Origin: Schizosaccharomyces osmophilus
Lineage: Eukaryota
NCBI RefSeq assembly: GCF_027921745.1
Contig: NC_079238.1
Coordinates: 744,001 to 808,000, forward strand
Direction: 5' to 3'
Length of the DNA: 64,000 bases
Below are positions 7,010 to 8,131 of the stretch, piece by piece (within the stretch, counting starts at the first letter, position 1; every line of letters begins with the position of its first letter). Under the pieces are notes generated by a model. It worked only from the letters and a program-made list of their open reading frames with translations. It had not been told where the DNA came from and did no database searches. Made by a program: the position numbers and the translations under genes.

Positions 7010-8131
7010 ATGAAAAACAAATATACTCCTATTTCAGATTCTGATGACTCTTCCAAAACGCTCAATGATGAAAAGGCAGATAGTCAGTCGTCTCCTTCAG
7101 ATGGTACGCCTCCTCCGTATTCAGGTAAGATTAGTTGAAATAGAAAGGAAAGGTTGATTTTTTGCGTGCTTTTTGAGCGGTTTTTGATGGAAGAATCATG
7201 CTTGTTTATTTATTTGTTGGGTTTGAGATGAATAACCTTGTCGATAAGTGTCAACAAACAGGGCGAATACCTCTATCCTTTTCACAAACAACGAAAGAAC
7301 AGTTACTAATACATCCATTAGCTTCAACCAAATTTATTGATCTCGAAATGGCTCCTGAAACAGAAGAAAGTTCTAAAAAGAAAAGATATCTGACGCCTCG
7401 TGAATTAGCAATTGTTTTTGCTATTTTTATTGTATATAATGTATGCTTGATTATTGCGAGGGTCATTCTTCTTGTTTACGAAATTCCGTTTAATCAGCTT
7501 GCCGTTTGGGTACTTTTTGGCGTTTGGTGCGCTCTATTTCTGTCATTGACAATTGGTAAGAAACTAATTTCAGGATTTTTAATGACTCACTAACTATTAG
7601 TAATAACTCAAATGCCTAAAGAATGGTTCCCGCAGGCCAAACAAGGGCTCACGCAAGCTGGAAGAGCAACCAAAAACGTATTGTCAGCTATGTGTATCGC
7701 AGCATTATATGTGTGTTTTCTCGATGTCCCTGGTTTTGTCGTGTATTATGCTGCAAAGAAGTTAACAGGATTTGAAAAGATAAACAATCAATTTTCCTAT
7801 GCTGTTTGTTTTGTTGATTCTGTCTTGTTTCTTTTTCTTTCGAGTATGCCATACAACCTGTGAACTATTCTAACTATTCTAGTAAACGGAAAGGCTCGTG
7901 AAAGCGTAAACTCTAGCTGCGTTATTTTCGTAAAAACCGTGAAAAAGAGCATAGGAATGAGTCTAAGCGTTATGGCAGACTTTTTGTTGTGGGATTCAGG
8001 TATTGTACATTGTGTTATGTTTCTTTCGTAACATCCTACTAACCTATTAATAAGGAACAAATCGAGGAGAAGAAACACCTCGGAACGAAGAAATCGAACT
8101 TCAACCTCTTGCTGAGCGGGCTGAAGTTTGA
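7010..8131 (+). CDS. wtf: wtf-family meiotic drive (poison/antidote) protein, 5 exons: 7010-7124, 7322-7555, 7601-7843, 7883-7999, 8055-8131; 261 aa
   Basis: Exon 1 reads MKNKYTPISDSDD...GTPPPYS (PY motif). Four phase-1 introns with CTAAY branch points splice to a 786-nt open frame. Multiple TM segments; C-terminus EEIELQPLAERAEV*. In-frame downstream ATG at 7348; flanked by 5S genes. Confidence 0.88.

What the first reader, a model, noticed from the sequence alone, without database searches (positions are those of the whole stretch)
7010..8131. Intact wtf gene with a two-protein (antidote/poison) architecture hidden by introns
Seen: four phase-1 introns (7125-7321, 7556-7600, 7844-7882, 8000-8054) give a 261-aa open frame. 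Exon 1 is a short acidic peptide ending in PPPY. Intron 1 is long (197 nt versus 39-55 nt for the others) and contains a forkhead-like TTGTTTAT (7202-7209) and in-frame ATGs (7198, 7228). Exon 2 has an in-frame ATG at 7348, giving a 214-aa form lacking the PY motif. Established: wtf drivers make a long PY-bearing antidote (Rsp5/Nedd4-family ligase, vacuole routing) and a short poison from a Mei4-driven promoter in intron 1. Inference: likely an active driver, but the intron-1 motif is ATAAACA rather than canonical GTAAACA, so it could be an antidote-only suppressor.
Basis: partly seen in the sequence, partly recalled or inferred. Interest (0 to 1): 0.85.

Follow-up and report, generated by a model that had tools for sequence, protein, structure and literature searches.

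The report
Annotated fission-yeast spore-killer gene wtf3
This is an intact, already-annotated yeast gene (wtf3 of Schizosaccharomyces osmophilus) from a known selfish spore-killer family; it is predicted to make a long antidote and a short poison, the poison likely only weakly, so it is an ordinary, untested family member.

Summary
The five exons splice to a 261-aa protein identical to a public S. osmophilus 'wtf meiotic driver'. Window 7010-8131 matches the published span of SOMG_00344/wtf3 exactly. Its syntenic allele, wtf28, was listed as a predicted driver in 2022. It lies in the described 5S rDNA-wag-wtf-5S rDNA unit. PPPY and the exon-2 Met are family-wide (52 of 52; 49 of 52). All intron-1 sites are degenerate. 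In S. octosporus only 1 of 28 genes without a confident FLEX had 10 or more poison-isoform reads, so strong drive is doubtful. No listed test covers this gene. One side lead: the neighbouring uncharacterised Wag protein has an invariant L-P-x-Y motif (27 of 27), not found in my paper searches.

The parts
4816..4934 (+). upstream 5S rRNA gene (left direct repeat of the unit)
   Evidence: Rfam RF00001, 99.9 bits; 3 differences in 119 nt from the right copy
5281..6118 (-). wag gene SOMG_00343 (260 aa; exons 6118-5623 and 5567-5281; phase-1 intron 5622-5568), divergent from wtf
   Evidence: spliced product equals P0060; span matches Table S4; wag label inferred from wag15 beside wtf28
6017..6028 (-). 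Wag LPRY motif (residues 31-34), a PY-type motif
   Evidence: L-P-x-Y in 27 of 27 aligned Wag proteins
6670..6678 (-). perfect 9-nt Mei4 core GTAAACAAA in the wag-wtf divergent spacer (function untested)
   Evidence: about 0.15 expected per spacer of this size, so weak
7010..7124 (+). wtf3 exon 1: antidote-specific tail with PPPY (7109-7120) and lysines K2, K4, K16, K22
7125..7321 (+). intron 1 (197 nt), predicted poison promoter region
   Evidence: equivalent intron skipped in a related gene's contig
7250..7260 (+). best FLEX-like site GTCAACAAACA (1 mismatch), 88 nt before the exon-2 ATG; sub-threshold in print (p=2.48e-5)
7322..7555 (+). exon 2 with predicted poison start ATG 7348-7350 (Met48) and first two hydrophobic helices
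7601..7843 (+). exon 3 (further hydrophobic helices; carries a 7-aa insertion relative to the nearest paralog)
7883..7999 (+). exon 4, divergent, lacks the IGNxxxG repeat; shared only with paralog P0004
   Evidence: 95% to P0004, at most 28% to the other 50 of 51 aligned homologs
8055..8131 (+). exon 5 with conserved NEEIELQP tail and stop
8850..8968 (+). downstream 5S rRNA gene (right direct repeat)
   Evidence: Rfam RF00001, 103.6 bits; direct repeat family D1

Best explanation
This is the annotated S. osmophilus gene wtf3 (SOMG_00344), an intact five-exon wtf gene that likely makes a 261-aa PY-tagged antidote and is predicted to make a 214-aa poison from the exon-2 ATG, likely at too low a level for strong drive. 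Shown here: gene structure, identity, PPPY, Met48, hydrophobic helices and the 5S-wag-wtf-5S context. Inferred from tested relatives: PPPY binds an Rsp5/NEDD4 ligase, tail lysines are ubiquitinated, the antidote co-assembles with a near-identical poison and carries it from the trans-Golgi to endosome and vacuole; the short form lacks the tag and would be toxic to spores that lack the gene. Inferred by analogy with S. octosporus: degenerate intron-1 FLEX sites give few poison transcripts, so it would behave as a weak or dormant driver whose antidote may also cover the 96%-identical paralog P0004.
For: Identity 261/261 with P0014; exact span match to chr1:751010-752131 and neighbours npt1, mrpl19, cox16, psu1. 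[LP]PxY in 52 of 52 and Met at the exon-2 position in 49 of 52 aligned homologs. Exon 2 is 76/78 identical to S. cryophilus wtf1, whose poison and antidote worked in S. cerevisiae; 4 of 5 non-pombe poisons tested there were toxic. DUB tethering made 4 of 4 S. octosporus antidotes toxic (passage). No perfect FLEX in intron 1. My tally of the published S. octosporus table (48 intact genes): without confident FLEX 1 of 28 had >=10 short reads, short/long 0.64%; with it 7 of 20, 3.7%. The three clear drivers (wtf25, 33, 68) all carry the perfect 11-mer.
Against: No meiotic RNA for this gene was seen; the published transcriptome of this strain is vegetative. 14 of 28 S. octosporus genes without confident FLEX still had some short reads, and wtf60 (sub-threshold motif) showed weak drive. 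GTCAACAAACA is kept in 18 of 31 intact S. osmophilus genes (counted), which could mean it is this species' working site. Toxicity cannot be read from sequence: 1 of the 2 tested S. osmophilus poisons (wtf19) was non-toxic, and both are only 51-52% identical to this protein. All functionally validated S. octosporus drivers have the exon-4 repeat that this gene lacks. Pfam WTF does not hit this protein itself.
Confidence: 0.58

Rival explanations
1. Fully active meiotic driver: GTCAACAAACA (or the 7199-7213 sites) is a working forkhead site in S. osmophilus, the poison is well expressed, and spores lacking wtf3 die.
For: Intact frame and Met48; listed as DRIVER by prediction; the same 11-mer in 18 of 31 intact genes at about the same offset; it is one of only 11 sites with <=1 mismatch in 64 kb; authors allow for poison transcripts without confident FLEX.
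Against: 0 of 31 intact S. osmophilus genes have a confident FLEX although the genome has 827 confident hits elsewhere; even among 7 S. octosporus genes chosen preferentially for high poison expression only 3 drove clearly; a 96% identical paralog (203/214 in the short form) could supply a neutralising antidote.
Confidence: 0.25
2. Effectively antidote-only: the short form is never made or is non-toxic (like S. osmophilus Wtf19 poison), and the gene only suppresses similar drivers.
For: Wtf19 poison was non-toxic and ER-like in S. cerevisiae; 17 of 48 intact S. octosporus genes had no short reads; exon 4 lacks the repeat.
Confidence: 0.15
3. The longer in-frame ATGs in intron 1 (7198, 7228) start the poison, giving a short form with an extra intron-encoded tail.
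For: Both are in frame with exon 2 in this copy.
Against: A 1-nt deletion at 7279, between these ATGs and exon 2, is seen in 5 contigs of X1 and 1 of X5, so the frame is not kept in other copies; both ATGs lie upstream of the 7250 site; published poisons of these species were cloned as exons 2-5.
Confidence: 0.04

Closest known systems
S. osmophilus wtf3 (SOMG_00344, type strain) / wtf28 (CBS 15792)
   Same: Same gene: 261/261 identity to WBW73057.1, same 1122-nt span and neighbours; the visible part of the published wtf28 protein row matches.
   Different: None found for wtf3. The draft wtf28 span is 1124 nt; the inter-strain identity table (S20) was not seen.
S. octosporus wtf25 (SOCG_04480), proven poison-antidote driver
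   Same: Five exons, single PPPY, exon-2 Met, same C-terminal tail; 46% local identity.
   Different: wtf25 has the perfect FLEX, 33 short reads, IGN repeats and shown drive; this gene has none of these shown.
S. cryophilus wtf1 (SPOG_03611) and S. osmophilus wtf41 / wtf19, tested in S. cerevisiae
   Same: Exon 2 nearly identical to wtf1 (76/78); exon 3 of the type seen in wtf41 and wtf19.
   Different: Whole-protein identity 60%, 51%, 52%; exon-wise trees place exon 2, exon 3 and exons 4-5 with different partners, a mosaic as described for the family.
S. pombe wtf drivers (wtf4, cw9; Pfam PF03303)
   Same: Two overlapping products, intron-1 promoter, PY-dependent ubiquitination (passages).
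   Different: 12.5-14.9% identity in the 9 S. pombe columns shown; one PY motif rather than two or three; flanked by 5S rDNA and wag, not Tf LTRs; Pfam WTF hits 19 of 52 family members weakly (best E 1.4e-4) and not this one.

Membership tests
wtf gene family (octosporus/osmophilus/cryophilus branch) | Sequence homology to named Wtf proteins | tested here: met
   Identical to P0014; 51 homologs at E<=1, all from the three Schizosaccharomyces species
wtf gene family (octosporus/osmophilus/cryophilus branch) | Five exons with a long intron 1 | tested here: met
wtf gene family (octosporus/osmophilus/cryophilus branch) | Single PY motif in the antidote-specific tail | tested here: met
   PPPY 34-37, the only [LP]PxY in the protein; 52 of 52 in A1
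wtf gene family (octosporus/osmophilus/cryophilus branch) | Multi-pass membrane protein | tested here: met
   Hydrophobic stretches 64-98, 93-122, 139-167, 180-199; helices in a low-confidence model, mean pLDDT 57.9
wtf gene family (octosporus/osmophilus/cryophilus branch) | Association with 5S rDNA and a divergent wag gene | tested here: met
Pfam WTF (PF03303) | Direct HMM match | tested here: not met
   No hit for P0014 at E<=10; 19 of 52 relatives hit weakly, so the link is only transitive
Active wtf driver | [quoted passage not shown] | tested here: met
   ATG 7348, Met48
Active wtf driver | Confident FLEX (Mei4) motif in intron 1 | tested here: not met
   Best site has 1 mismatch and is sub-threshold in print; not strictly required in S. 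octosporus
Active wtf driver | Short meiotic transcript from intron 1 | not testable with these tools
   No raw meiotic reads available; only contigs could be laid
Active wtf driver | Toxic short form, rescue by long form, biased transmission | not testable with these tools
   Needs bench tests; this gene is not among those tested in the sections read
Antidote-only wtf suppressor | Loss of the exon-2 start codon | tested here: not met
   Met48 present (definition)

The most novel reading that the evidence does not exclude
The unit is a two-gene system: Wag, the uncharacterised membrane protein transcribed away from wtf3, carries its own invariant PY motif (LPRY/LPKY) ahead of a conserved internal Met65 and its membrane helices, copying the Wtf layout. 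It would be an Rsp5-recruiting partner that travels with wtf between 5S repeats, acting as a helper antidote or as a second, unrelated poison-antidote gene.
Probability: 0.12. Interest if true: 0.65.

Novelty: already known. Interest (0 to 1): 0.14.

Why it matters
As found, little: it re-derives from raw sequence a gene already named and classed as a predicted driver. It remains one of about 30 intact S. osmophilus wtf genes, of which only two were tested in the sections I read, and none in its own host. Two open points could matter. First, whether the family-wide GTCAACAAACA site works would tell if S. osmophilus wtf genes still drive or have been muted as a group. Second, the Wag PY motif gives a first testable idea for a gene family still called uncharacterised in a December 2025 preprint.

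Tried and rejected
Pfam on single exons and on the whole protein: no WTF hit, only weak unrelated membrane families. Profile search of 1.84 billion representatives with the 52-sequence alignment: 16 hits at E<=0.001; the 9 new ones read all have the same MKN/MRN-type start, none looks like an S. pombe Wtf or an outside homolog. AlphaFold model low confidence (pTM 0.32) and Foldseek on PDB gave 0 matches at E<=0.001. Wag as a diverged Wtf: profile-profile probability 0.2% against the non-pombe alignment and Pfam WTF absent from the 25 of 27 families shown for Wag; S. pombe Wtf sequences were not held, so a resemblance of the Wag tail to S. pombe antidote tails (seen by eye) is untested. ESM Atlas: no usable hit for Wag. 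Wtf-Wag complex prediction: no verdict. Sequencing runs: no RNA holder listed. Exon 4 as a frameshifted copy of the IGN repeat: the other two frames show no such repeat. Wag-associated versus other S. octosporus genes in short/long ratio: 0.64% (14 genes) versus 2.72% (34), not significant, p=0.15. Wag Met65 is kept in 25 of 27, but neighbours E60, A61, S62 are kept as well (24-25 of 27), so it is not specially conserved. Earlier scan findings: none by place or words.

Full report
Observation. PPPY is at 34-37 and is the only [LP]PxY; the exon-2 ATG at 7348 gives 214 aa. A contig of coded run X13, from another organism and with 16 differences over 6889-7122, skips exactly the 197-nt intron-1 equivalent; its RNA status is the tool's guess and no DNA run of that organism was laid beside it.

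Identity. A search with exon 2 returned 10 proteins, 8 named S. osmophilus 'wtf meiotic driver' and 2 from S. cryophilus. The cluster of the nearest one holds P0014 (WBW73057.1), identical to the spliced product at 261 of 261 residues. Table S4 of PMC10085805 lists SOMG_00344, wtf3, chr1:751010-752131 (+), 'syntenic with wtf28 in CBS 15792'; this is window 7010-8131 plus 744000, and npt1, mrpl19, cox16, SOMG_00343 and psu1 fit the same offset. Supplementary file 1c of PMC9562144 lists wtf28 as predicted DRIVER with wag15, 5S rDNA on both sides and a sub-threshold motif hit GTCAACAAACA, p=2.48e-5.

Surroundings. Two 5S rRNA genes in direct orientation (4816-4934, 8850-8968) enclose a divergent pair: SOMG_00343 on the minus strand (5281-6118, one 55-nt intron; product equals P0060) and wtf3. 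This 5S-wag-wtf-5S layout, and spread by recombination between 5S genes, is described in PMC9562144. S. cryophilus has a 5S gene without wtf at the syntenic place.

Family features. In a 52-sequence alignment (this protein plus 51 stored homologs; 4 short or partial hits and P0012 were left out) every member has one [LP]PxY in the first 80 residues and 49 have Met at the exon-2 position, 3 have Ile. Pfam WTF does not hit this protein at E<=10 but hits 19 of 52 members weakly, best 1.4e-4. The protein is a mosaic: exon 2 is >=90% identical in 12 of 51 homologs, including S. cryophilus wtf1; exons 3, 4 and 5 reach 90% only in P0004; exon 4 is at most 28% identical to the other 50 and lacks the IGNxxxG repeat. 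Trees of 30 of the 52 rows, built per exon, group it with different partners, though many forks are weak. P0004 (likely wtf17/wtf12, inferred) differs by a 7-aa gap and 4 substitutions.

Mechanism. [quoted passage not shown] From PMC9562144: 4 of 5 non-pombe poisons were toxic in S. cerevisiae, the exception being S. osmophilus wtf19. Applied to wtf3 these steps are inference; it is 51-60% identical to the tested S. osmophilus and S. cryophilus proteins.

Is the poison made? [quoted passage not shown] Intron 1 here has no perfect 11-mer; the best is GTCAACAAACA at 7250-7260 (1 mismatch; 11 such sites in the window against 2.5 expected). A leading A is not disabling: ATAAACAAACA scores p=1.1e-6 in print and 5 of 7 S. 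octosporus genes with it had short reads. My tally of all 48 intact S. octosporus genes: with confident FLEX 17 of 20 had short reads, 7 had 10 or more, ratio 3.7%; without, 14 of 28, 1, and 0.64%. Drive tracked poison level, and 3 of 7 deleted genes drove clearly. So I put a weak or dormant driver first (0.58), an active driver second (0.25) and effective antidote-only third (0.15). Against my reading: the GTCAACAAACA site is shared by 18 of 31 intact S. osmophilus genes (counted) and may be this species' working site; the extrapolation across species is untested. The intronic ATGs at 7198 and 7228 are unlikely starts, since other copies carry a 1-nt deletion at 7279 that breaks their frame.

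Side lead. In 27 aligned Wag proteins (27 of the 30 hits; 3 short ones left out), L31, P32 and Y34 are invariant (LPRY 12, LPKY 15), as are E46-K47-G48 and P51, Y53, although the two tail types share only 24-37 of 69 residues; the background rate of [LP]PxY in this window's long ORFs is 0.011 per 69 aa. The sequences are related, so 27 is not 27 independent cases. Wag shows no profile match to the Wtf alignment. I found no paper noting this motif: PMC9562144 has 0 hits for 'PY motif', two library searches listed no paper holding both 'wag' and 'PY motif', and a December 2025 preprint still calls wag uncharacterised. Subscription papers and bioRxiv supplements were outside these searches.

Papers seen. 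PMC9562144: abstract, sections 7, 9, 10, 11, 12, 32, first parts of 6 and 14, passages, supplementary file 1 parts 1, 2, 44 and one row of 1e, cut rows of the Fig. 2-S1 alignment. PMC10085805: passages and rows of Tables S4, S10, S12 and Fig. S12; Table S20 not seen. PMC10721834, PMC9762604, PMC12930445: passages. PMC11892871: passages and section 17. PMC13160552: abstract only.

Verdict. Real, correctly described, already known and named. Interest 0.14; the Wag PY motif is the only lead not found in print.

Noticed in passing
window 5281-6118 (-): The wag gene product has an invariant L-P-x-Y motif (27 of 27), a second P-x-Y, an invariant Lys47 and an internal Met65 (25 of 27) ahead of its membrane helices, suggesting Rsp5-family binding.
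   Followed up: partly
window 6670-6678 (-) and 6155-6161 (+): A perfect 9-nt Mei4 core lies in the wag-wtf spacer, and a GTAAACA core lies 37 nt upstream of the wag ATG; either could give meiotic expression of wag or of the antidote. About 0.15 such 9-mers are expected per spacer.
   Followed up: partly
window 9845-9855 (+) and 10524-10534 (-): Two of the window's three perfect FLEX 11-mers lie in the unannotated 2-kb stretch between the right 5S gene and the tRNA at 11188-11259; no target gene was identified.
   Followed up: no
window 3197-12952: cox16 and psu1, which flank the unit, are neighbours in S. japonicus and 12 kb apart in S. cryophilus but about 240 kb apart in S. octosporus and 1.4 Mb apart in S. 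pombe, so this 5S site may be a reused rearrangement breakpoint.
   Followed up: no
window 7883-7999: Exon 4 is unlike that of 50 of 51 homologs and lacks the IGNxxxG repeat; only P0004 shares it, so these two genes may form their own poison-antidote compatibility group.
   Followed up: partly
window 5080-6665 and 5273-6605: Contigs of run X1 join across the wag gene, consistent with paralogous 5S-wtf units that lack wag.
   Followed up: no
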